From positions 225,847 through 289,846 of the forward strand of contig JASJBF010000002.1 in the NCBI GenBank assembly GCA_030066685.1: 64,000 bases of DNA, given 5' to 3'. The notes beneath the pieces were generated by a model. The model did no database searches and was not told the origin of the DNA. It saw only the letters and a program-made list of their open reading frames with translations. Origin of the DNA: Kiloniellales bacterium. GTDB lineage: Bacteria > Pseudomonadota > Alphaproteobacteria > Kiloniellales > JAKSBE01. The position numbers and the translations under genes were made by a program. How positions within the stretch are numbered: position 1 is the stretch's first letter; each line of letters opens with the position of its first letter. Shown piece by piece: positions 4,946-31,047 of the stretch.

Positions 4946-5254
4946 TCACCGGACACCATCGTGCAGGACGCAGTCGGACTATGTCATGCTCCCCGGGGAG
5001 GCAGGAGGCCCATGGCTGTTGCGATCGGTGCCGGCGGCTCCCGTCCTAGGGCTTTCGGGTCCGATCACCGCTCCGGGGCGTCCCTGACGCGGCGCCACCG
5101 CCCGCTATCCAGGAAGCGGATTTGACCGGAGCCTCCGCGAAGCCTCAGGATCACGCACACCAATAGCCGCCCGCACAATACGGGCGGCAGGATCCAATCC
5201 ATAGCTATTCATGACAAGGGATGCCCGGCAGGGCGCTCCTATCGCGTCAGCGCG

Positions 5255-5458
5255 CTAGAAGCCTTCGCGCTCCATGCGCTTGCGCAGCAGCTTGCGGTAG
5301 CGGCGCACCGCCTCGGCCTGCTCGCGCTTGCGGCGCTCGGAGGGCTTCTCGTAGGAGCGACGCAGCTTCATCTCACGGAAGATGCCCTCGCGCTGCATCT
5401 TCTTCTTCAGCGCGCGCAGGGCTTGGTCGACGTTGTTGTCGCGAACATGTACGTGCAC
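5255..5458 (-). CDS. rpsU: 30S ribosomal protein S21
   Basis: A 67 aa basic protein, [46 protein letters not shown], matching the S21 family. Confidence 0.9.
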
Positions 5459-5678
5459 GGCCCTTCAAGTCTCCTTCTGGACCTAGGGTTAAGCGAACAT
5501 TGCCGGGCTGGCGGCTGGTCGCCCCGGCATGCAGACGCAAAACAACGTCCGCGGCGGCCGGACCACGCCGGGGCCGGTGTGGTAGCACAGCCGCCGGGGC
5601 TTGGGAAGGCGAATCTTCGGCGGTTTTCGGACGCCGCGGCGGCTTTACCTTGGCCCCCCGGCTACTCATATTGAGCCC

Positions 5679-6272
5679 ATGGCCATTCTCAAGATCGCCC
5701 GCATGGGGCATCCCGTGCTCAGCCGCCCGGCCGCACCGGTCGACGATCCCGGGGCGCCCGCCATCCGCCGGCTGGTCGCGGACATGATCGAGACCATGGA
5801 GGACGCGCCGGGCACCGGCCTGGCCGCGCCCCAGGTCCATGTCCCGTTGCGCCTGGTGGTCTTCAAGGTGGAGGGCGCGCGCGCCAGCCGCGAGGACGGG
5901 CCCGAAGCGAGCGGACCAGGGGCGGACGGGCCCAGTGCGGACGGGGGCGGGGACGGCACGGTGCCGATGACCGTGCTGATCAATCCCGAGATCGAGCCCC
6001 TGGGCGAGGACAAGGCCCTCGGCTGGGAGGCCTGCCTCTCGGTGCCCGAGCTGGCCGGCGAGGTGCCGCGCTACACCGCGATCCGCTACCGCGGCCTGGA
6101 CCCGGACGGCCGAACGATCGAGCGCGAGGCCAGAGGTTTCCACGCTCGGGTGGTCCAACACGAGTGCGACCACCTGGACGGGATCCTCTACCCGCAGCGC
6201 ATGCTCGACTTGAAGAAACTGGTCTTCGCCTCCGAGCTGCGTCACCTGGGCGGTGCCGAAGCTGCGGACTGA
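5679..6272 (+). CDS. def: peptide deformylase carrying a low-complexity insertion
   Basis: Motifs GTGLAAPQV (motif I), EACLSVPE (motif II) and QHECDHLDG (motif III) are present. Start chosen at MAILKIAR (ATG 5679). The gene is divergent from rpsU. Confidence 0.88.
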   Translation: MAILKIARMGHPVLSRPAAPVDDPGAPAIRRLVADMIETMEDAPGTGLAAPQVHVPLRLVVFKVEGARASREDGPEASGPGADGPSADGGGDGTVPMTVLINPEIEPLGEDKALGWEACLSVPELAGEVPRYTAIRYRGLDPDGRTIEREARGFHARVVQHECDHLDGILYPQRMLDLKKLVFASELRHLGGAEAAD

Positions 6273-7804: not shown

Positions 7805-7831
7805 AGGCCCGGCCTCCCAGGCGGCGTGGGC

Positions 7832-8161
7832 TTACAGGCCGTCCGGCTTCTCGATCACCAGGATGCGGGCCTCGCCCAGGGGATGGGCGACGTGCTCGTC
7901 GCCGGCTTCTGCGAAGCAGACATCGCCGGCCGCCAAGTGCTGCGCCTTCTCGATCCCGGCTTCCCGGTAGTGCATCTCGACTAGATAACTGAGTGCGCCC
8001 GAGACCGCGGCGCCATCTTTGACGTATGGGTCGCAGGGTTTGTCGACGAGAAGCGCTCTTAGGCGACTTCCCGCAATCAGCAGCTTTCCGGGCGTTCTGA
8101 ATTCACATTCGTTCCACAGGCCTCTAGTGGAGCACCAATCTGCTGGGGAATTAACCTTCAC
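7832..8161 (-). CDS. small cupin-domain protein
   Basis: Motif GDVCFAEAGDEHVAHPLGEARILVIE fits cupin motif 2 (GD..x..G..H..H). GC drops across the N-terminal part of the gene. Confidence 0.5.
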   Translation of the reverse strand: MKVNSPADWCSTRGLWNECEFRTPGKLLIAGSRLRALLVDKPCDPYVKDGAAVSGALSYLVEMHYREAGIEKAQHLAAGDVCFAEAGDEHVAHPLGEARILVIEKPDGL

Positions 8162-8201
8162 TTAACCATAACTAATTATCACCTTTTATCTGTCACGTCT
8201 A

Positions 8202-9242
8202 ATGGGTCATTCAAGAGCATGGCCTCTTCCAATGCTGCCGGTTGATTGGTGCAAGATGAAACTTCAGAAAGATGGCGATGCAAGCGATTTCGGCGTCGAC
8301 GGGGGCGCTGGCAAAACAGAAGCAAGGCTTCATCGGAAACTCGGACGCTACGTCCTGATAAGTTTACTGGAAGGCCAAAAATCCAGTCGTTTGGCAACAA
8401 TAACTCTTGGAATGTTGCTTCCGGTCATTGTATCGGGATGCAGTTTAGTGAACTCGAATAAGCTAATGCGTGCAGATGCATACGTCACGCAAGGTTCAGC
8501 CCAGATCAAAGATGGAAAAGTAAAAGACCCTATCAATCTGGACTCTTTCAAGTTTAATGTTGGGGATACGGAGTCAGCTTACTCAAAGGCATCGAAAGCA
8601 CAAAATGGTGTCGACCGGAACCGTCTGCAGAGCTTCCTGCTTCGCCTTTCCGACGTGAACTGTGCTCGATATGTCGACGACATGTATGCCAGGGTCGCGG
8701 CCAGAAAGGTCGTGCTGAAGTCAATTACCCTTTTATCGGGTAGCGCAGCTGCTGTCGTGTCGGGAGAGCTGGCAAAAAGTGTCCTTGGTGCCGTTAGCGC
8801 CGTCGCAACAGGTACCGACGCGATCCTGGACGCCGAGATATTGCAGAACCAGGTAATTACACTGGTGGCTACCCAAATAAATGCACAGCGCGCATCTATC
8901 GCTGCAGAAATTCGACGAAAACGTGAAGAGGCTGATCAGCAGGGGAACCAATCACTGGTAACTTATTCCCTGGAAGGCGCAATCCATGACGTCGATCGAT
9001 ATCATCAAGCTTGTGGATTCCTGCCGGCAATTGTAGAGCTGACCAAGGAGTCCCAAAGGGTCAGGGTTACAAAGGCTTCACTTGATGCGGAGCGCGGTAA
9101 ATTAATGAAGGAGAAGGACGATATTGACACAAGGATCCGGAATCAAACAAATCAAAATATACTAAAGATCGAAAATAGAAGGCTTGAGCAAATCGGTCGT
9201 AGGTTGGAAGAGATCGACATCCTGCTCAGGGTTGCGGAGTAA
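8202..9242 (+). CDS. ORFan lipoprotein/membrane protein with a C-terminal coiled coil, in an AT-rich island
   Basis: Hydrophobic segment with lipobox-like LPVIVSGCS. C-terminal heptad-rich region ..DAERGKLMKEKDDIDTRIRNQTNQNILKIENRRLEQIGRRLEEI. Local GC about 45% against a 66% background. Start codon uncertain. Confidence 0.45.
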   Translation: MGHSRAWPLPMLPVDWCKMKLQKDGDASDFGVDGGAGKTEARLHRKLGRYVLISLLEGQKSSRLATITLGMLLPVIVSGCSLVNSNKLMRADAYVTQGSAQIKDGKVKDPINLDSFKFNVGDTESAYSKASKAQNGVDRNRLQSFLLRLSDVNCARYVDDMYARVAARKVVLKSITLLSGSAAAVVSGELAKSVLGAVSAVATGTDAILDAEILQNQVITLVATQINAQRASIAAEIRRKREEADQQGNQSLVTYSLEGAIHDVDRYHQACGFLPAIVELTKESQRVRVTKASLDAERGKLMKEKDDIDTRIRNQTNQNILKIENRRLEQIGRRLEEIDILLRVAE

Positions 9243-9555
9243 ATTGCTTCGCGATGTATTGTGTTGTCTGTAGAGATGTAGCAACGGTCCTTTGCGGAGT
9301 GAGCGTGGTCTCAGGACCGGAAGAATCTCGTGATCATAGTTTGGTAGATGGCAATGTACTGCCGGATCAGGCCCGAGCGGAATGCCGGCAGAAGCCAAGC
9401 GCCAGTCTCAAAGCGCTAACTGAGCTTCAATGAACCTGGAAACCAGTAGCGCCAAGTCGCATCCCTTGTATCGCAAGTCAAAGCCGGCGGGCCGGTTTGA
9501 TAAGTGGATGTGACATTCCTGCTATCTTTCACCTATTGCTCTTGAGGCCGTAGGA

Positions 9556-16178: not shown

Positions 16179-16592
16179 TCAGCCCGAGACCGCCGCGGCG
16201 TTGATGCCGGCGACCGCCAGCTTGACCGCGACCAGGACCAGGGCGGGGCCGATCTCCCCGGCCTCGATGCGGGCCGGCAGGTCCCGCAGGATCAGGTCGG
16301 CGGCCTTGAAGGCGACCAGCTGGATCACCAGGGTCAGGGCGCCCCAGATCAAGATGTCCCACTCGCTGACGCTGTTGGCCATGCAGACCGCCAGGGGAAA
16401 GCCGATGCCTAGGATCGCGCCGGAGAGGGAGACCGCCGCCGCGACGTTGCCCTCGCGGATCAGCCGGAATTCCCGGTGCGGCGTGATCCAGACGTAGACC
16501 ACCACCCCGACGGCGAGCATCGCGGTGGTGATCGCGAAATGGGAAAGGAGGGTGGGAAACCCGGTGAAGAAGCTCTCGAGCACCGCGTCCAT
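16179..16592 (-). CDS. DUF350 membrane protein
   Basis: A 137 aa protein with four predicted transmembrane helices, starting MDAVLESFFTGFPTLLSHFAITTAMLAV. The long N-terminal extension of the ORF 16179..17678 was rejected. Confidence 0.6.
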   Translation of the reverse strand: MDAVLESFFTGFPTLLSHFAITTAMLAVGVVVYVWITPHREFRLIREGNVAAAVSLSGAILGIGFPLAVCMANSVSEWDILIWGALTLVIQLVAFKAADLILRDLPARIEAGEIGPALVLVAVKLAVAGINAAAVSG

Positions 16593-16663
16593 TGCGCCGC
16601 CTGCCTGCCTGGTTGCAACCGCGCCCAGGACGTAGCGCAGGCGGCGCCCGGGGTAAACAGCGC

Positions 16664-17761
16664 TCACGCCGCCGCGGCCGCCGCCTCGACACGCCCGAGG
16701 CGCTTCAGGAAGCGCAGGTGCGAACGGATCATCCCGAAGAAGCTGGTCTCCCGGATGACCAGGCCGTGCTTGCGCGCCGTCGCCCGGATGATCGGTGCCA
16801 GGTCCCGGTAGTGGACGTGGCTCACCTTCGGGAAGAGGTGGTGGGCGACGTGGCAATTTACGCCGCCGGCCAGAACAGCGGCGAGCCGGCTCTGCGGCGA
16901 CCAGTCGAGGGCCGTGGCGATGGCGTGCTCGGCCCAGTCGCCGGCCAGGCGGCCGTCCGCGGCGACCTTGGGAAAGTGGGTCTCCTCGGCGAAGTGGGTG
17001 CCGATCAGCAGGACCACGAAGGTCAGCGAGGCGATCCCGGTCATGACCAGGTAGCCGATGACGATCTGCCACCAGGGCAGCTCGATCAGCAGCAGCGGCA
17101 GGCCCAGGGTGAGAGTGAAGTAGATCGACTTGGCGGCGAAAAACTTCAGGGCTTCCGCGCGGGTCGGGCTGAGGCCGACCATGTTGGCCAGGCGGTCCTT
17201 GGTCAGGTAGACGAAGTCCTGCACGAAGATCGAGTGCAGGTTGACCAGGAGGTAGAGCAGGGGCGCATAGAGGTGCTGCAGGCCGTGGAACCAGCGCCGG
17301 GGATGGTTCGGGGTCAGGCGGATCAGGCCGTTGTGGTCGATGTCGGCGTCGCAGCCCTCGACGTTGGGGAAGACGTGGTGGGACTTCACGTGGCGCAGCC
17401 GCCAGAGCCGGCCGTCGACCCCGATCAGGCAGAAGATCGCGAACTGGATCGCCCGGTTCAGCCGCGGATGGGGCGTGAGCGCGTCGTGGGCCGCGTCGTG
17501 GGCGACGTTGATCCCGAGCAACAGGCCGGAGAGCCCGAAGACGACGGCCAGCGCGAGCAGCGCCAAGGGCGGCAACGGCAGGGTCAGGAGGGCGCCGTAG
17601 GCGGCCGCCCCGACGCCGGCGATGATGGCGGCCTTGGCCCAGAGCCGCCGGTCGGCGTAGGGCGAGGTGCCGGTCCACTGAAAGTAGGTCTGCACCTGCT
17701 GCCGGACCTCGCGAAAGAAGGCGGTTCCGCTGCCGCCCGCGAACTTGATCCTCATCGTCAT
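16664..17761 (-). CDS. membrane fatty-acid desaturase
   Basis: Histidine boxes HDAAH, HVKSHH and HVAHH plus multiple transmembrane helices. Start at MTMRIKFAGGSGTAFFREVRQQVQTYF, a typical desaturase N-terminus. Confidence 0.85.
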   Translation of the reverse strand: MTMRIKFAGGSGTAFFREVRQQVQTYFQWTGTSPYADRRLWAKAAIIAGVGAAAYGALLTLPLPPLALLALAVVFGLSGLLLGINVAHDAAHDALTPHPRLNRAIQFAIFCLIGVDGRLWRLRHVKSHHVFPNVEGCDADIDHNGLIRLTPNHPRRWFHGLQHLYAPLLYLLVNLHSIFVQDFVYLTKDRLANMVGLSPTRAEALKFFAAKSIYFTLTLGLPLLLIELPWWQIVIGYLVMTGIASLTFVVLLIGTHFAEETHFPKVAADGRLAGDWAEHAIATALDWSPQSRLAAVLAGGVNCHVAHHLFPKVSHVHYRDLAPIIRATARKHGLVIRETSFFGMIRSHLRFLKRLGRVEAAAAAA

Positions 17762-17866
17762 GGTATGATCCCCATGCTTTAAGGCACTGATCCAGATTGT
17801 AAGTGAATACTCACTTACAATCTGAGAAATGGACCCGTGGCAGGAGTTCTTCAAGCCCTTTCTTGG
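17706..17866. repeat. roughly 160 bp segment (desaturase promoter-operator and first about 25 codons), copy 1 of 2
   Basis: About 85% identical by eye to 19170..19330. Includes the palindrome TTGTAAGTGAATACTCACTTACAA. Confidence 0.8.
17797..17820. promoter_or_regulatory. 24-nt palindromic candidate operator (10-bp arms, 4-nt spacer) in the desaturase 5' leader
   Basis: TTGTAAGTGA-ATAC-TCACTTACAA is a perfect inverted repeat 36 nt upstream of the desaturase ATG. Confidence 0.5.
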
Positions 17867-18062
17867 CGTCTAGGAGACGATACTCAGGGCGGCTTGGCGC
17901 CCCTGGTAAACAAGGCTCATGCCGATGCAACTGCGGCTTCGGCCTCGCGACGCGAACGTAAGCCGGGCGCGGCCAGAGTTGCAGCGCGCCCGGTGGGTAC
18001 AGTTCAAGAAATCGCGCTCCAGCCTCATTGATTTTGAGCGAGAGTTCAGCGGAACTCGTCGA

Positions 18063-19223
18063 TTAGTCCAAGAGCGCTCGGGCCACGAGTCTGACGGTTT
18101 GAATGTGATACAGCTCTTTAGAGGCCGGCAGATACATGAGCCAGCGCCTGAGCCCGATACTCTTGAGCGGTCCCTCGAAAACCCTGCCGTTTATCTCGAA
18201 GCGGTAGCTCGAAGGACCGGGGTAAAAGCTTTCGGCTGGCACGAGAACAGTGTAGCCTTGGAGGGTCTCTTCCTTCGAAAAGACCGCTCCCGCTACTTCG
18301 TCGACTGGCATCGTGCCATAGGTTCGGTAAAGACCTCCGCAGAGCTCGTGAACCTCTTCGGCGATGACTCGGCAGCCGTAATACGGCGTACTGCGGCCAC
18401 GAACAACGCAGTGATTGATGCCCGAACACAGCAGGCCTTCCAGCGCCCGTCGCCTGTCCTCCTCGCCGTAAAGGTCCGAGTCCCAGACAATCAACGTCGG
18501 GGCCCGGTACTCTGCGAGGCTCTCCCTGGCCCCATCGATCTGACCCCAGAGCCGCTCGTCCGCGCTCGTCACCACGTAGCCGCGGAACACCTTCGGCTCT
18601 TGCTCGAGTAGCCAGGGCACTTCTGCGAGAAGGGAGGATTGGGACTCGAACTCCCCTGGTCTTGACCAGATCCAGTCGCCGGTGCCGAGACGCTTCGCTT
18701 CAAACCCTTTGAACCTGACCCGGGCATCTTTCTGGGCGTAGTAAGTGTCGGAGAAGTAGACTTCGGCCCGGGACGGCCGGTCGGGGTCATCGACCCAATA
18801 GACGAGAGGATAGTAACCCTCGGGGAAAGTGTCGTCCAAGCCACCTTGCCACCTCGAGCAGGCCGTCAGCGGTGACATCAGCAGGACGCCGCCCGTGGCC
18901 AGCTTCGCGGCAAAGGCTCGATTTCTGACGTTGAACAGATTGCCTGGCCCCGATCCGAAATTGTAGGGGAAGAAATCCGGCCCCTTCCGCACGCACTCGA
19001 CGACGCCGCCCAGAGACACGGCCTCGCCCTCGACCTCGAAGTCGGCACGAACGGAGTACCAGTGATAGGCCGGAGTGCCTCTTGCGCCGATACAGGCAGA
19101 GGTCAGAAGCAAGACCGAAAGGACAAGGATCGGAGACCGCAATCGGACCGTCCCGACCTTCGCCCTCACCTCGCGGAAGAAGGCGCTTCCGCTGCCGCCC
19201 GCGAACTTGATCCTGGTCGTCAT
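18063..19223 (-). CDS. chimeric hypothetical lipoprotein: desaturase-like 25 aa N-terminus fused to an unrelated secreted domain
   Basis: Begins MTTRIKFAGGSGSAFFREVRAKV (duplicated desaturase 5' end), then lipobox LLLTSAC and a roughly 330 aa domain of unknown function with lower GC. The plus-strand ORF 17919..18611 was judged spurious. Confidence 0.5.
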   Translation of the reverse strand: MTTRIKFAGGSGSAFFREVRAKVGTVRLRSPILVLSVLLLTSACIGARGTPAYHWYSVRADFEVEGEAVSLGGVVECVRKGPDFFPYNFGSGPGNLFNVRNRAFAAKLATGGVLLMSPLTACSRWQGGLDDTFPEGYYPLVYWVDDPDRPSRAEVYFSDTYYAQKDARVRFKGFEAKRLGTGDWIWSRPGEFESQSSLLAEVPWLLEQEPKVFRGYVVTSADERLWGQIDGARESLAEYRAPTLIVWDSDLYGEEDRRRALEGLLCSGINHCVVRGRSTPYYGCRVIAEEVHELCGGLYRTYGTMPVDEVAGAVFSKEETLQGYTVLVPAESFYPGPSSYRFEINGRVFEGPLKSIGLRRWLMYLPASKELYHIQTVRLVARALLD

Positions 19224-19330
19224 GGCATGGCCCCCATGTCCTCGCGCCCTGATCCGAAGTGTAAGTGAGTAATTACTTACAAAATCCGAAATGGGATGCC
19301 GGCCGGTGACCTTCAAGCCCTTTTTCGCTT
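19170..19330. repeat. roughly 160 bp duplicated segment, copy 2 of 2
   Basis: Aligns with 17706..17866. Palindrome variant GTAAGTGAGTAATTACTTAC. Confidence 0.8.
19258..19284. promoter_or_regulatory. palindromic candidate operator, second copy
   Basis: AAGTGTAAGTGAGTAATTACTTACAAAA with core GTAAGTAATTACTTAC, at the same relative position upstream of the chimeric gene's ATG. Confidence 0.45.
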
Positions 19331-19373
19331 CGGGGGCGGTCGCCGGGGGCCGCGGGGCGCCGCGGTCTTGCGA

Positions 19374-19745
19374 TCAGAAGAGCGACAGGCTGCGTCTGTA
19401 GGGACGGCCGTGCAGCAGGACGAAGCGGCTGCGCACCCGGCGGACTTCCAGCAGTTCGCAGTCGGGCAGGCGCGCGGCCAGGAAGGCCGTGGCCTCGAGG
19501 TAGTCGTCGGCGCGCAGGCGGTGGACCCGCGGTTTCCGCCGTTCGCGGCACGCGAGCTGCACCCGGTAGATACCGCCGGCCAGGTAGTGAGCCAGCTCCG
19601 CCTCGATGGGGCGGTGGATGTAGGCCGGGCCGGCGAGGATGCCGGAGACGTTGAGGTAGATCTCCAGGCCCAGGCCCCCGACCAGGATCAGCGCCATCAG
19701 CAGCCAGTGGCGCGGCTTCATCTTGTGCAGCGGGATCCGCTTCAT
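19374..19745 (-). CDS. small single-pass membrane protein, tandem paralog 1 of 3 (unknown family)
   Basis: N-terminal transmembrane segment, then the conserved C-terminal ..Y.......L.C.........LRADD...A.AFLAARLPDCE. Confidence 0.5.
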   Translation of the reverse strand: MKRIPLHKMKPRHWLLMALILVGGLGLEIYLNVSGILAGPAYIHRPIEAELAHYLAGGIYRVQLACRERRKPRVHRLRADDYLEATAFLAARLPDCELLEVRRVRSRFVLLHGRPYRRSLSLF

Positions 19746-19748
19746 CGC

Positions 19749-20087
19749 CTAGATCCGCTTCATCCAGGTGACCTCGCAGTCCGGGAAGCGCTGCGCCAGG
19801 AAGGCCAGGGCCTCCTCGGAATCGTCGGCGCGCAGGGTGTTGGCCCGCTTCCGCGGCGCATTGCGACAGGACAGGCTGACGTCGTAGCGATGGCCCACGA
19901 CCATGTAGAGGGTCTCCGTCCTCAGGCCCCGGTGCAGGTAGTCGCGGCCGTCGCGGACCCCGGTCACGCTGACCGCGAAGCCCAGGAAGAGGCCGCTGGC
20001 GAGCAGCAGGAGCAGGGCGGTGCCGAGGCCGCCCTTGCGGCCCCGGGAGCGGGATTTTCGGCGCTTGCGGCCTCTGCGGTCGCTCAT
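19749..20087 (-). CDS. small single-pass membrane protein, tandem paralog 2 of 3
   Basis: Arg/Lys-rich N-terminus, transmembrane segment, then ..GRDYLHRG..VSLSCRN..LRADD..ALAFLAQRFPDCEV. Confidence 0.5.
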   Translation of the reverse strand: MSDRRGRKRRKSRSRGRKGGLGTALLLLLASGLFLGFAVSVTGVRDGRDYLHRGLRTETLYMVVGHRYDVSLSCRNAPRKRANTLRADDSEEALAFLAQRFPDCEVTWMKRI

Positions 20088-20097
20088 CTAGGCGTTC

Positions 20098-20403
20098 CTA
20101 GCCGAAATCCATGGAATGCTTGACCCGGCAGTCCGGAAAGCGTGCCTTCAGATAGGCCTTGGCCTCGCCCCAGCGGCGCGCGCGCAGGCGCACCACCCGC
20201 AGCTGCGGCGGCGTCTCGCAGGCCAGGGTCGCGGACATGGTGTGGCCCCAGAGCCGGAAGCGGAACTCGTTGTAGAAGTCCCGCGAGACGTAGTCGCCGT
20301 CCCGCGTCAGGCCGGCGGCGGCCAGGGCCGCGCCGACGAGGTAGACCGTCAGCACCACGGCCGCCGCCGCGGCGACGCTCTTGGCCGGCTTGGGAATCCG
20401 CAT
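20098..20403 (-). CDS. small single-pass membrane protein, tandem paralog 3 of 3
   Basis: MRIPKPAKS.. transmembrane segment ..DGDYVSRD..ATLACE..LRARR..AKAYLKARFPDCRV. The long N-terminal extension in the ORF track was rejected. Confidence 0.5.
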   Translation of the reverse strand: MRIPKPAKSVAAAAAVVLTVYLVGAALAAAGLTRDGDYVSRDFYNEFRFRLWGHTMSATLACETPPQLRVVRLRARRWGEAKAYLKARFPDCRVKHSMDFG

Positions 20404-20438
20404 GGACCGGAGCCTAGCAGGCCCCATTTTCCATAGGG

Positions 20439-22124
20439 TTAAGCCGTTTGCGACCCCGCCTTCTCCCTGAGCACGAACTTCTGGATCTTGCCGGTGGAGG
20501 TCTTGGGGAGCTCGCCGAAGATCACGGTCCGGGGGCACTTGAAGTGGGCCAGGTTGTCGCGGCAGAAGGCGATGATCTCCTCAGCCGTGGCCTCGGCGCC
20601 CTCCTTCAGCTCGACGAAGGCGTAGGGGGTCTCGCCCCACTTCTCGTCCGGCTTGGCGACCACGGCGGCCAGCGCCACCGCCGGGTGCTTGTAGAGCACG
20701 CCCTCGATCTCGATCGAGGAGATGTTCTCGCCGCCGGAGATGATGATGTCCTTGGAGCGGTCCTTGAGCTCGACGTAGCCGTCGGGATGCCAGACCCCGA
20801 GGTCGCCGCTGTGGAACCAGCCGCCGGCGAAGGCGGCCGCGCTGGCCGCGGGGTTCTTGAGGTAGCCCTTCATGACGATGTTGCCCTGGAGGAAGACCTC
20901 GCCCAGGGTCTCGCCGTCCTTCGGCACCGGCGCCAGGGTCTCGGCGTCGGCGACCATCAGGCCCTCCAGCACCGGATAGTTGACGCCCTGGCGGGACTTG
21001 AGTGCAGCCTGCGCCTCGCCCGGCAGGCCGTCCCAGGCCTCGTGCCAGGCGCAGACCACCGCGGGGCCGTAGGACTCGGTCAGGCCGTAGACGTGGGTCA
21101 CCTTGATGCCCTGCTGCTCCATGGCGGCCAGGACCGAGGCCGGTGGCGGCGCGGCGGCGGTCATCATCTCGACCCGCTGCGGGAAGCCGGCGCGCTGCTC
21201 TTCCGTGGCGCCGAGGATCATCTGCATGACGATGGGCGCGCCGCAGAGGTGGGTCACGCCCTGCTCGGCGAAGGCCCGGTAGATCGCCCCCGCCTCGACC
21301 CGGCGCAGGCAGACGTGGGTGCCGGCCAGCGCCGTGATGGTCCAGGGGAAGCACCAGCCGTTGCAGTGGAACATCGGCAGGGTCCAGAGGTAGACCGGGT
21401 GCGGCGCCATGCCCCAGGTCAGGACGTTGCCCAGGGCGTTCAGATAGGCGCCCCGGTGGTGGTAGACCACGCCCTTGGGGTTGCCGGTGGTGCCCGAGGT
21501 GTAGTTGAGCGAGATCGCGTCCCACTCGTCGCCGGGCAAGGACCAGGCGAAGTCCGGGTCGCCCTCGGCCAGGAAGCCCTCGTAGTCCAGGCTGCCCAGG
21601 CGCTTGCCGCCGGGTCCCTGGGGATCGTCGACGTCGATCACCAGGATCTCGCGGTCGAGCTCGGCCAGGGCCGCTTCGATGACCGGTGCGAACTCGGTGT
21701 CTGTGATCAGGACCTTAGCCTCGCCGTGATCGAGGATGAAGGCGATGGCGGCGGCGTCCAGGCGGACGTTGAGGGCGTTCAGCACCGCGCCGGCCATGGG
21801 CACGCCGTGGTGCGCCTCCCACATCGGCGGCGTGTTGGGCGCCATGACCGCGACGGTGTCGCCCTTGCCGATGCCGCGCTTGGCCAGCGCCGAGGCCAGG
21901 CGCCGGCAGCGCGCGTAGGCCTCGGCCCAGCTCCGCGTCTCGGCGCCGTGGACCACGGCCGCGCGCTCGGGGAAGACCGCAGCGGTGCGCGGCAGGAAGC
22001 TCAGCGGCGACAGCGGCGTGTAGTTGGCCGGGTTCTTCTCCAGGTCGGTCTCGTAGGGCCTGCTGCCCGCCGTCGGGTCTTGGGTCACGGTCCGCTGCCT
22101 CCCGGTTCCGTCTTCATTCTGCAC
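20439..22124 (-). CDS. AMP-dependent acyl-CoA synthetase/ligase (medium-chain type)
   Basis: AMP-binding motif YTSGTTGNPKGV plus ..GYGLTE..GWFHSGD..PKTSTGKIQK. Confidence 0.88.
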   Translation of the reverse strand: MQNEDGTGRQRTVTQDPTAGSRPYETDLEKNPANYTPLSPLSFLPRTAAVFPERAAVVHGAETRSWAEAYARCRRLASALAKRGIGKGDTVAVMAPNTPPMWEAHHGVPMAGAVLNALNVRLDAAAIAFILDHGEAKVLITDTEFAPVIEAALAELDREILVIDVDDPQGPGGKRLGSLDYEGFLAEGDPDFAWSLPGDEWDAISLNYTSGTTGNPKGVVYHHRGAYLNALGNVLTWGMAPHPVYLWTLPMFHCNGWCFPWTITALAGTHVCLRRVEAGAIYRAFAEQGVTHLCGAPIVMQMILGATEEQRAGFPQRVEMMTAAAPPPASVLAAMEQQGIKVTHVYGLTESYGPAVVCAWHEAWDGLPGEAQAALKSRQGVNYPVLEGLMVADAETLAPVPKDGETLGEVFLQGNIVMKGYLKNPAASAAAFAGGWFHSGDLGVWHPDGYVELKDRSKDIIISGGENISSIEIEGVLYKHPAVALAAVVAKPDEKWGETPYAFVELKEGAEATAEEIIAFCRDNLAHFKCPRTVIFGELPKTSTGKIQKFVLREKAGSQTA

Positions 22125-30443: not shown

Positions 30444-30900
30444 TCGCCTCTCTCGCCGGCAAGAAATCGCCGGGCGCAACATTTGAACTCTTCCCCAGTA
30501 TTATTGGAACAATTCTGTCTTTTTCTGGCTTGGATCCGATTCTGTCTTGAACCGGATTCGGCTCCGGCCTATAACCCGCGTCCGCCCGGACGACGGGCGG
30601 CCTTTGCAAGCAGTGGAAACGGCAATGACGCAAGAGTCATTCAACGAAAGCCGGCCATCAGGGCCGGAGGACACCAGGGCCTGACCCGGGCGTTTCCGCT
30701 CGTGTCTTGCCCGAGAGCGATCGACGAGAAAGGGCGAGACACATGAGACAATCCATCATGACATAGGCGAAAAGCCGGCACCCTTCGCTAGGTGACCGGG
30801 CTTCATTCCTTTGGTCATTTCCTCCGTGGTCCGGGCTCCGAAGGCCCGGCCGGCGCGCCCGGCGTCCGTAATGCGCCCCGCGTGTATCGAGTTTGACCGT

Positions 30901-30973
30901 GCCGATGTAGCTCAGTGGGAGAGCGCCGGGCGCGAGCGCCCGGAGGTCGCGGGTTCGAGTCCCGTCATCGGAA
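30901..30973 (+). tRNA. tRNA-like gene with a non-canonical anticodon arm; identity undetermined, possibly a pseudogene
   Basis: Canonical D arm (GCTC-AGTGGGA-GAGC) and T arm (GCGGG-TTCGAGT-CCCGT), and a 6/7 paired acceptor stem. The anticodon arm is CCGGG-CGCGAGCG-CCCGG (8-nt loop) or a 6 bp stem with a 6-nt loop. There is no U at position 33 and a G1-A72 mismatch. Confidence 0.5.
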
Positions 30974-30974
30974 C

Positions 30975-31047
30975 CCGAATGTAGCTCAGTGGGTAGAGCA
31001 CTGGACTGATAATCCAGGAGTCGAGGGTTCGATTCCCTCCATTCCGC
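30975..31047 (+). tRNA. tRNA-Ile (anticodon GAU)
   Basis: Cloverleaf: acceptor CCGAATG/CATTCCG (C2-C71 mismatch), D arm GCTC-AGTGGGTA-GAGC, anticodon arm CTGGA-CTGATAA-TCCAG, T arm GAGGG-TTCGATT-CCCTC. It starts 1 nt after the preceding tRNA-like gene. Confidence 0.75.

What the first reader, a model, noticed from the sequence alone, without database searches (positions are those of the whole stretch)
17706..19330. The promoter, operator and first 25 codons of the desaturase gene are duplicated and fused to an unrelated lipoprotein gene
Two roughly 160 bp segments (17706-17866 and 19170-19330) are about 85% identical. Each spans the upstream region and the first roughly 25 codons (MTxRIKFAGGSGxAFFREVR) of a minus-strand gene. 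In copy 1 the reading frame continues into a bona fide histidine-box membrane desaturase. In copy 2 it continues, after the shared N-terminus, into a lipobox (LLLTSAC) and a roughly 330 aa domain of lower GC (about 55-57%) unrelated to desaturases. This looks like a 5'-end and promoter capture that places a probably horizontally acquired gene under the desaturase's regulation and gives it a start codon. Alternatively it is the decayed remnant of a second desaturase copy.
Basis: seen in the sequence. Interest (0 to 1): 0.6.

Follow-up and report, generated by a model that had tools for sequence, protein, structure and literature searches.

The report
Desaturase promoter and start captured by foreign gene
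A roughly 165-base piece holding the promoter, repressor-binding site, ribosome site and first 23 or so codons of a fatty-acid desaturase gene is present twice, and the second copy drives and starts an unrelated, apparently imported envelope-protein gene; this is a clean natural example of a known way for bacteria to domesticate foreign genes, not a new kind of system.

Summary
Window 17706-17870 and 19168-19331 align at 81% identity (score 147; shuffles 21±2.5).

Each copy carries:
- a conserved -35-like CTTGAAG;
- a palindromic operator, TGTAAGTRA-N4-TYACTTACA, found only at these two sites in 64 kb;
- a Shine-Dalgarno sequence, the ATG and about 23 codons.

Copy 1 continues into a histidine-box desaturase. 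Copy 2 continues in frame into a signal peptide with a lipobox and a 340-aa domain. That domain belongs to an uncharacterised family and has low GC3 (0.73 against 0.90-0.96 in neighbours).

The shared N-terminus is universal in desaturases and absent from other members of the captured family, so the direction of capture is clear. A related contig (L017) has the same locus with one module and no lipoprotein gene: it is the window minus one 1462-bp unit. A remnant of the desaturase 3' end lies downstream of the lipoprotein gene.

A diverged paralogue (P0002, 49% identity) keeps the same in-frame junction. In Pelagibius the same operator precedes both a TetR gene and the adjacent desaturase, which points to a DesT-like repressor. 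Co-regulation is inferred, not shown.

This is a known kind of event. Interest is moderate.

The parts
17706..17870 (-). Module copy 1, the desaturase's own 5' region: -35-like CTTGAAG (17849-17855), palindromic operator (17798-17819; perfect 14-nt arms at 17793-17824), SD GGGGA (17769-17773), ATG (17759-17761), codons 1-~19 (MTMRIKFAGGSGTAFFREV; homology continues to about codon 23 at 17693).
16664..17761 (-). Membrane fatty-acid (acyl-CoA type) desaturase, 365 aa, with three histidine boxes.
   Evidence: Pfam PF00487, E=4e-30. Orthologues at 84-90% identity. Histidine boxes read from the translation.
19168..19331 (-). Module copy 2: -35-like CTTGAAG (19311-19317), operator (19260-19281), SD, ATG (19221-19223), codons 1-~19 (MTTRIKFAGGSGSAFFREV; homology continues to about codon 23 at 19155).
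18063..19223 (-). Chimeric gene, 386 aa. Desaturase-derived residues 1-~23, then a signal peptide with a lipobox-like LTSAC (Cys44, 19092-19094), then a 340-aa periplasmic domain of an uncharacterised family. GC3 is 0.73.
17951..19155 (-). Foreign segment that replaced the interior of a desaturase copy: signal peptide, mature domain and a 111-bp 3' flank (17951-18061) with a GC-rich hairpin.
   Evidence: The 5' limit is where module homology ends. The 3' limit is where 94% identity to L001:1-111 ends and the desaturase remnant begins.
17885..17945 (-). Remnant of a desaturase 3' end: last codons, TGA and about 40 nt downstream. The core 17896-17924 matches 16643-16671 at 24 of 29 positions.
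   Evidence: Best local match of the spacer to the whole desaturase gene plus downstream region: score 33, shuffles 21 +/- 2.2, 0 of 500 reaching it. The motif occurs only at these two sites. It is colinear with the desaturase 3' ends of L007 and L008.
19374..20538 (-). Three tandem paralogous small membrane-anchored genes (19374-19745, 19749-20087, 20098-20538 as the longest ORF). They lie upstream of the module, are part of the variable region, and are absent from L007 and L010.

Best explanation
One copy of a tandemly duplicated desaturase unit had its interior replaced by about 1.2 kb of foreign DNA. The unit ran from about 110 nt upstream of the ATG to about 40 nt past the stop. The foreign DNA encodes the signal peptide, mature domain and 3' flank of an uncharacterised periplasmic (lipo)protein.

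The 5' junction is in frame after about codon 23. The imported gene therefore inherited the desaturase's promoter, operator, ribosome-binding site, start codon and a short, positively charged cytoplasmic N-terminus. That N-terminus now serves as an extended n-region ahead of the hydrophobic segment and lipobox. If LspA cleaves at Cys44, the borrowed residues are removed, which would make the fusion harmless to the mature protein.

Both genes carry the operator T(G/A)T(G/A)AGT(G/A)A-N4-TCACTTACA just downstream of a conserved -35-like CTTGAAG. In Pelagibius the same operator precedes a TetR-family gene and the adjacent desaturase. The most likely mechanism is repression of both promoters by an unlinked DesT-like TetR repressor, so the envelope protein would be co-expressed with the desaturase in response to lipid or acyl-CoA state.

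Shown: the duplication, the in-frame chimera, the direction of capture, absence of the unit in relatives, conservation of promoter elements in all copies, and the operator-TetR association in a relative.

Inferred: the order of events, transcription from copy 2, translation from the module ATG, lipoprotein processing, the identity of the repressor, and the signal it senses.
For: - Repeat significance and anatomy.
- Desaturase identity.
- The N-terminal motif is native to desaturases.
- The captured family (155 representatives) has variable, unrelated N-termini.
- L017 equals the window minus one 1462-bp unit, with a single module: small genes, module, desaturase, DUF350.
- L007 and L010 have the AMP-binding gene followed directly by the desaturase.
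- L012 is an independent contig 100% identical over both copies.
- 3' desaturase remnant.
- The foreign segment's 3' limit coincides with the end of the 94% match to L001.
- Low GC3 of 0.73.
- P0002 keeps the same junction, reading frame and Cys44 at 49% identity.
- The -35-like box, operator, SD and ATG are conserved as islands while the rest of the upstream region has drifted to 57-71% identity.
- The operator lies upstream of both the TetR gene and the desaturase in Pelagibius L014, and these are the only two sites in 13 kb.
- The hairpin strength of the palindrome varies from 5 to 27 bp among relatives, so it is a protein site and not a conserved RNA structure. Rfam found nothing.
- DesT precedent: PMC10634369.
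- Promoter capture of transferred genes by duplication or deletion: PMC6614815.
Against: - There are no expression data.
- The consensus sigma-70 scan finds no promoter in the region. The -35/-10 assignment rests on conservation only.
- No TetR orthologue is present in the 64-kb window, and no regulator gene lies within about 10 kb on either side.
- The L014 TetR is a generic family member, not specifically DesT.
- The operator is not found upstream of two other desaturase homologues, L015 and L016.
- A TTG at 19140-19142 could serve as an alternative start in this genome.
- The lipobox has Thr at -3 and the Cys is at position 44, later than usual.
- The borrowed peptide evolves nearly neutrally in the lipoprotein copies (dN/dS about 0.7 on 23 codons), so the peptide itself is probably a passenger.
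- The 3' remnant is short (24 of 29 core positions).
- Most comparison contigs are short metagenome fragments of 0.6-3.5 kb.
Confidence: 0.75

Rival explanations
1. Campbell-type integration. A circular 1462-bp DNA carrying [module, lipoprotein gene, flank, desaturase 3' remnant] was derived from a strain in which the lipoprotein gene had replaced the interior of the only desaturase copy. It integrated by a single homologous crossover within the module of an intact desaturase locus, which produced the flanking direct repeats.
For: The product structure and the 1462-bp period are exactly what a single crossover would give. Related populations do carry damaged desaturase alleles with the module retained (L019 and L020, internal deletion of about 770 bp). 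The two module copies are as diverged from each other (77%) as from other strains' modules (74-78%). That fits import from another strain.
Against: No allele of the form module, lipoprotein, remnant, DUF350 without an intact desaturase was found. The end product cannot be told apart from tandem duplication followed by replacement. The functional outcome, 5' capture, is the same.
Confidence: 0.3
2. The shared segment upstream of the lipoprotein gene is an inert relic. The gene is transcribed and translated from its own signals, starting at TTG 19140-19142 to give MRSPILVLSVLLLTSAC. The in-frame continuity with the module ATG is accidental.
For: The TTG start gives a textbook-length lipoprotein signal peptide of 17 residues. 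The borrowed peptide evolves almost neutrally.
Against: Only 18 nt separate the end of module homology from that TTG, with no room for a promoter. Any transcript must start in or upstream of the module. P0002 preserves the open frame and the same spacing to Cys44, but its only internal TTG gives a signal peptide with no charged n-region. The -35-like box, operator, SD and ATG are conserved in both lipoprotein-linked copies while the surrounding bases drifted. Native family members also have N-terminal tails of 20-45 residues before the hydrophobic segment.
Confidence: 0.12
3. The two-copy arrangement is an assembly or binning artefact of a metagenome-assembled genome.
For: The source is a MAG. 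Several related haplotypes coexist in the same sample series.
Against: A separately deposited metagenome contig (L012, JAAUXY010026319.1) is 100% identical over 3469 bp spanning both copies. The copies are only 81% identical, too diverged to cause repeat-induced misassembly. A second variant (L001) independently shows a module fused to a paralogous lipoprotein gene.
Confidence: 0.03

Closest known systems
Promoter capture of silent or horizontally transferred genes by tandem duplication or deletion. Examples: experimental activation of a transferred gene in E. coli (PMC6614815), and the rnk-citT duplication of the long-term evolution experiment as cited there.
   Same: A duplicated segment places a resident promoter in front of a gene that lacks suitable expression signals. 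The parental gene stays intact. The junctions look illegitimate or microhomology-type.
   Different: Here the capture is a natural, fixed event with intermediates visible in related populations. It includes the operator, the SD, the start codon and about 23 codons, giving a translational chimera. The captured segment sits inside the remains of a whole duplicated gene, with both its 5' and 3' ends retained.
DesT-controlled desCB desaturase operon of Pseudomonas aeruginosa: a TetR-family repressor whose DNA binding is modulated by saturated versus unsaturated acyl-CoA (PMC10634369).
   Same: An acyl-CoA-type desaturase gene has a palindromic operator in its promoter. In the relative Pelagibius a TetR gene lies immediately upstream with the same operator in front of it, suggesting autoregulation. 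An acyl-CoA synthetase gene is adjacent in the window.
   Different: The TetR of L014 is only a generic family match to DesT (E=3e-7 among about 100 TetR structures). No regulator gene is in the window. The ligand is unknown. I could not compare the operator sequence with the DesT site. The regulon here includes an unrelated envelope protein.
Variable surface lipoprotein gene families that share a conserved 5' cassette (promoter plus signal peptide), such as the Mycoplasma vsp and vlp families. This comparison is from my own knowledge and was not checked here.
   Same: Diverged lipoprotein genes (window gene and P0002, 49% identity) share a much better conserved 5' expression and leader region. 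They appear to occur in tandem (L001).
   Different: The shared 5' region derives from a metabolic enzyme gene and is also used by that enzyme. There is no evidence of phase variation, site-specific recombination or repeats in the mature domain.

Membership tests
Membrane fatty-acid desaturase (Pfam PF00487), copy-1 gene | Match to the family profile above the curated cut-off | tested here: met
   105.9 bits against a cut-off of 29.7, E=4e-30, residues 67-339
Membrane fatty-acid desaturase (Pfam PF00487), copy-1 gene | Three histidine boxes (HX3-4H, HX2-3HH, HX2-3HH) | tested here: met
   HDAAH, HVKSHH and HVAHH read from the translation
Membrane fatty-acid desaturase, copy-2 gene | Desaturase domain after the shared N-terminus | tested here: not met
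   No PF00487 hit and no Pfam or NCBIfam hit at all. Only residues 1-~23 are desaturase-derived.
Bacterial lipoprotein (signal peptidase II substrate), copy-2 gene | Positively charged n-region, hydrophobic h-region of 7-15 residues, and a lipobox [LVI][ASTVI][GAS]C | tested here: inconclusive
   The n-region has 7 Arg/Lys. The h-region is about residues 31-43 (hydropathy). The lipobox is L-T-S-A-C with Thr, not L/V/I, at -3. Cys is at position 44, later than the usual 15-35. P0003 has the canonical LISGC, but many family members have no Cys at all.
Bacterial lipoprotein (signal peptidase II substrate), copy-2 gene | Lipidation and cleavage at the Cys | not testable with these tools
   Needs globomycin sensitivity, palmitate labelling or mass spectrometry
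Chimeric gene by partial duplication with promoter capture | A duplicated 5' segment of a resident gene, with promoter elements, joined in frame to an unrelated ORF, while the parental gene remains intact | tested here: met
Chimeric gene by partial duplication with promoter capture | The ancestral state without the duplication exists in relatives | tested here: met
   L017 has a single module and no lipoprotein gene. L007 and L010 lack the whole island.
Chimeric gene by partial duplication with promoter capture | The captured gene is expressed from the captured promoter | not testable with these tools
   Only indirect support: conservation of the -35-like box, operator, SD and ATG in both lipoprotein-linked copies
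DesT-like TetR-controlled desaturase regulon | Palindromic operator in the desaturase promoter | tested here: met
   17798-17819 and 19260-19281 are the only two sites in the window, with 0 expected. The core RAGTRA-N4-TCACTY is conserved in 7 related promoters.
DesT-like TetR-controlled desaturase regulon | A cognate TetR-family gene linked to the desaturase and carrying the same operator | tested here: inconclusive
   Met in Pelagibius L014: TetR at 5257-5823, operators at 5216 and 5967. Not met in the window: no TetR orthologue by tblastn. The rest of the genome is not available.
DesT-like TetR-controlled desaturase regulon | Repressor binding modulated by acyl-CoA saturation | not testable with these tools
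   Biochemical property (PMC10634369, for DesT)

The most novel reading that the evidence does not exclude
The 5' module would not be a one-off accident but a reused, selected adaptor. A lipid-state-responsive promoter and operator, together with a start and a short cytoplasmic leader, would be propagated in front of successive, rapidly diverging members of an uncharacterised periplasmic protein family with no solved-structure homologue: the window gene, P0002, and tandem units in L001. Envelope composition would then be remodelled together with membrane desaturation. In the strongest form, the retained desaturase N-terminal peptide itself would confer a second, post-transcriptional level of co-control, for example shared membrane targeting or turnover.
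Probability: 0.1. Interest if true: 0.7.

Novelty: new member of a known kind. Interest (0 to 1): 0.38.

Why it matters
The locus documents, in natural populations, how a horizontally acquired gene can obtain a complete and regulated expression front end in one step. The front end comprises promoter, operator, ribosome site, start codon and a topologically compatible N-terminus, all borrowed from a resident gene. The locus also preserves several stages: a single-module ancestor, the chimera, a diverged second chimera, and deleted alleles.

It yields a testable prediction that an uncharacterised envelope protein is co-regulated with membrane desaturation through a TetR-type operator. It also flags a widespread protein family of about 155 cluster representatives with a confident predicted fold and no solved homologue. 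The mechanism itself, promoter capture through duplication, is already established experimentally.

Tried and rejected
- **RNA element in the shared 5' region.** Rfam found nothing. Folding of five homologous leaders gives hairpins from 5 to 27 bp with z-scores from +1.2 to -10. There is no conserved RNA structure, so I read the palindrome as a protein operator.
- **Consensus sigma-70 promoter and terminator scan.** It found none in 16500-20600 and is uninformative for this high-GC alphaproteobacterium.
- **Regulator next door.** Pfam scans of 20 neighbouring genes found no transcription factor. tblastn of the Pelagibius TetR against the window found nothing.
- **Module scan of 185,579 species genomes.** Zero hits.
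- **Module scan of metagenomes.** Only 4 contigs, all the same lineage.
- **Plasmid search for the captured domain.** No match.
- **Recombination breakpoint at the lipobox between the window gene and P0002.** The sliding identity shows a gradient and no sharp break, so I make no cassette-swap claim. L013 hints at one, but it is a 594-bp, possibly chimeric scaffold.
- **Operator decay in the lipoprotein-linked copies.** Rejected, because the genuine desaturase operator of L017 has the same GTAA left half.
- **Gene conversion between the copies.** Not supported. The copies are as far from each other as from other strains' modules.
- **DesT operator sequence.** I could not retrieve it from the searchable literature.
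Full report
**1. The observation**

On the minus strand, window 17706-17870 and 19168-19331 form a direct repeat with a period of 1462 bp.
- The repeat finder reports 168 nt at 77% identity without gaps.
- A gapped local alignment gives 131 of 162 identical positions (80.9%) and a score of 147. 300 dinucleotide-preserving shuffles gave 20.7 ± 2.5, maximum 31.
- Identity is 87% over the first 23 codons and about 70% over the 100 nt upstream.

Each copy contains, in order:
- a CTTGAAG box (17849-17855; 19311-19317);
- a palindrome TGTAAGTRA-N4-TYACTTACA (17798-17819; 19260-19281), with perfect 14-nt arms in copy 1;
- a GGGG(A/G) Shine-Dalgarno sequence;
- an ATG (17759-17761; 19221-19223);
- codons for MT(M/T)RIKFAGGSG(T/S)AFFREVR.

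The palindrome pattern occurs at only these two places in 64 kb, with none expected by chance.

**2. The two genes**

Copy 1 continues into a 365-aa PF00487 desaturase (E=4e-30). It has histidine boxes HDAAH, HVKSHH and HVAHH.

Copy 2 continues in frame into:
- a hydrophobic stretch at about residues 31-43;
- LTSAC with Cys44;
- a 340-aa domain with no Pfam or NCBIfam match.

GC3 of the copy-2 ORF is 0.73, against 0.90-0.96 for nearly all neighbours. Regional GC falls to 56-64%. Both fit foreign origin.

**3. Direction of capture**

In about 120 desaturase homologues down to roughly 50% identity, the N-terminus carries the same motif: K/R-I-K/R-F, 5-7 residues, F-Y/F-R-x-V/L-K/R-x-R-V. The segment is therefore native to desaturases.

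The captured protein's relatives are few in the word-indexed search, with 3 beyond itself. An exhaustive profile search finds 155 cluster representatives. Their N-terminal tails are variable and unrelated to desaturases, and are followed by a hydrophobic segment and the conserved P-x-Y-x-W-Y-S-V-R-A-D-F-E-V start of the domain.

The only other protein with the desaturase N-terminus is P0002 (MTTRIKLAGGNGTDLFREVRAQ...). It is 49% identical to the window protein and has the same junction position and Cys at residue 44.

**4. Comparative genomics of the locus**

Metagenome contigs from the same lineage (84-93% DNA identity in flanking genes) show the locus in several states.

| Contig(s) | Arrangement |
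|---|---|
| L007, L010 | acyl-CoA synthetase gene, about 325-bp spacer, single module, desaturase, DUF350 gene; no small genes, no lipoprotein gene |
| L017, L018 | synthetase, three small paralogous genes, single module, desaturase, DUF350; this is the window minus exactly one repeat unit |
| Window, L012 | two modules; L012 is an independently deposited contig, 100% identical over 3469 bp spanning both copies |
| L019, L020 | small gene, module to about codon 11 joined to the last third of the desaturase (internal deletion of about 770 bp) |
| L021 | small gene followed by DUF350; desaturase absent |
| L001 | 111 bp that are 94% identical to the window lipoprotein's 3' flank (18061→17951), then a 5'-truncated small gene, a module, and P0002; module-lipoprotein units therefore occur in tandem there |

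The chimera is thus lineage-specific and embedded in a rearrangement-prone locus.

**5. A desaturase 3' remnant**

I aligned the 190-bp spacer between the lipoprotein stop and copy 1 to the whole desaturase gene plus its downstream region. The best match is the desaturase stop-codon region: 17896-17924 against 16643-16671, 24 of 29 positions, score 33. Shuffles gave 21 ± 2.2, and 0 of 500 reached the observed score.

The motif TGAGCNNTGTTTACCNNGGGCGCC occurs at only these two places. The spacer is colinear over about 60 nt with the desaturase 3' ends of L007 and L008. The remnant begins where the 94% match to L001 ends, at 17951.

The unit therefore reads:
- desaturase 5' end, from -110 to codon ~23;
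- 1.2 kb of foreign DNA (19155→17951);
- desaturase 3' end, comprising the last codons, the stop and about 40 nt.

An intact promoter and desaturase follow.

I cannot tell whether a tandem duplicate was hollowed out or a hollowed-out allele integrated by a single crossover. The two module copies are about as far from each other (77%) as from other strains' modules (74-78%). The event is therefore not recent, and the copies are not being homogenised.

**6. Are the captured signals used?**

- Across seven related module sequences the upstream region has drifted to 57-71% identity. The CTTGAAG box, the operator core RAGTRA-N4-TCACTY, and the SD, ATG and first six codons stay conserved, including in both lipoprotein-linked copies.
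- Only 18 nt separate the end of module homology from the one possible internal start, TTG 19140-19142. Transcription must therefore begin in or upstream of the module.
- P0002 has no equivalent internal start with a charged n-region and keeps the frame open from the module ATG.
- The borrowed peptide evolves almost neutrally in the lipoprotein copies (dN/dS about 0.7 over 23 codons). The mature domain is under purifying selection (about 0.23). The peptide is probably a tolerated passenger: a positively charged cytoplasmic tail ahead of a hydrophobic segment. That is the same topology it has in the desaturase, and it resembles the 20-45-residue tails of native family members.

**7. The operator**

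The palindrome's hairpin potential ranges from 5-6 bp (L001, L007) to 27 bp (L008). Only the half-site core is conserved, and Rfam finds nothing. It is therefore a protein-binding site and not an RNA structure.

In Pelagibius sp. (L014; desaturase 51% identical) a TetR-family gene lies immediately upstream of the desaturase. TAAGTGA-N4-TCACTTA occurs exactly twice in 13 kb, once in front of the TetR gene and once in front of the desaturase.

This is the arrangement known for DesT and desCB in Pseudomonas, where acyl-CoA saturation modulates repression (PMC10634369). The L014 protein is only a generic TetR match.

The window holds no TetR orthologue and no regulator near the locus. Two other desaturase homologues, L015 and L016, lack the operator. 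Co-repression of both window genes by an unlinked DesT-like repressor is therefore an inference.

**8. The captured protein**

With a 44-sequence alignment AlphaFold2 gives a confident model (pLDDT 90.4, pTM 0.89). The model is mostly β with a few helices.

**9. Comparison with what is known, and verdict**

Promoter capture of transferred or silent genes by duplication or deletion, often at microhomologies, is established experimentally (PMC6614815). This locus is a natural instance with three extra features:
- it is a translational chimera that also takes over the operator;
- both ends of the donor gene copy survive;
- intermediates and a diverged second chimera are visible in related populations.

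It is a new member of a known kind. Interest is moderate at 0.38. Regulation remains to be shown.

Noticed in passing
window 30900-31047 (+): Two abutting tRNA genes. tRNA-Ile(GAT) lies at 30975-31047. It is preceded by a tRNA-like gene (Rfam tRNA, 53.9 bits) that ARAGORN reads with a four-base anticodon 'cgag' in an 8-nt anticodon loop. Alternatively the loop is 6 nt if C-G closes it.
   Followed up: partly
window 19374-19745, 19749-20087, 20098-20538 (-): Three tandem paralogous small genes, 33-42% identical. Each has an N-terminal hydrophobic segment and a conserved C...LRADD..EA.AFL..RFPDC motif, and none has a Pfam hit. A search of 5.8 billion proteins found only four homologues, all from the same lineage. 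The genes are present or absent among related contigs.
   Followed up: partly
L008:77-134 (relative of the desaturase locus): The operator sits inside a perfect palindrome with 27-nt arms. Its 3' arm covers the Shine-Dalgarno sequence. The predicted RNA hairpin is -64 kcal/mol with z = -10. This is much longer than in any other relative.
   Followed up: no
window 18063-19088 (-) and proteins P0125-P0271: The captured domain belongs to an unnamed family of about 155 cluster representatives, each about 350-400 aa, anchored by a TM segment or lipobox. It has no Pfam model. The AlphaFold2 model is confident (pLDDT 90) and has no significant match in the PDB.
   Followed up: partly
L019:593-605, L021:343-405 and window 16179-17761: The desaturase appears dispensable in this lineage. 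One related contig has an internal deletion of about 770 bp that joins codon ~11 to the last third of the gene. Another has lost the gene and its module entirely, while keeping the flanking small gene and DUF350 gene.
   Followed up: partly
L013 (TARA scaffold, 594 bp) 351-512: A stretch 91% identical to the P0002 gene starts exactly at the lipobox Cys codon. It is flanked on both sides by unrelated sequence of 40-50% GC and has a different N-terminus. This is either a cassette-like exchange of the mature domain or a chimeric assembly.
   Followed up: partly
window 7805-9555: A stretch of about 1.75 kb has no ORF passing the GC3 filter used for gene calling and no Rfam hit at gathering threshold.
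   Followed up: no
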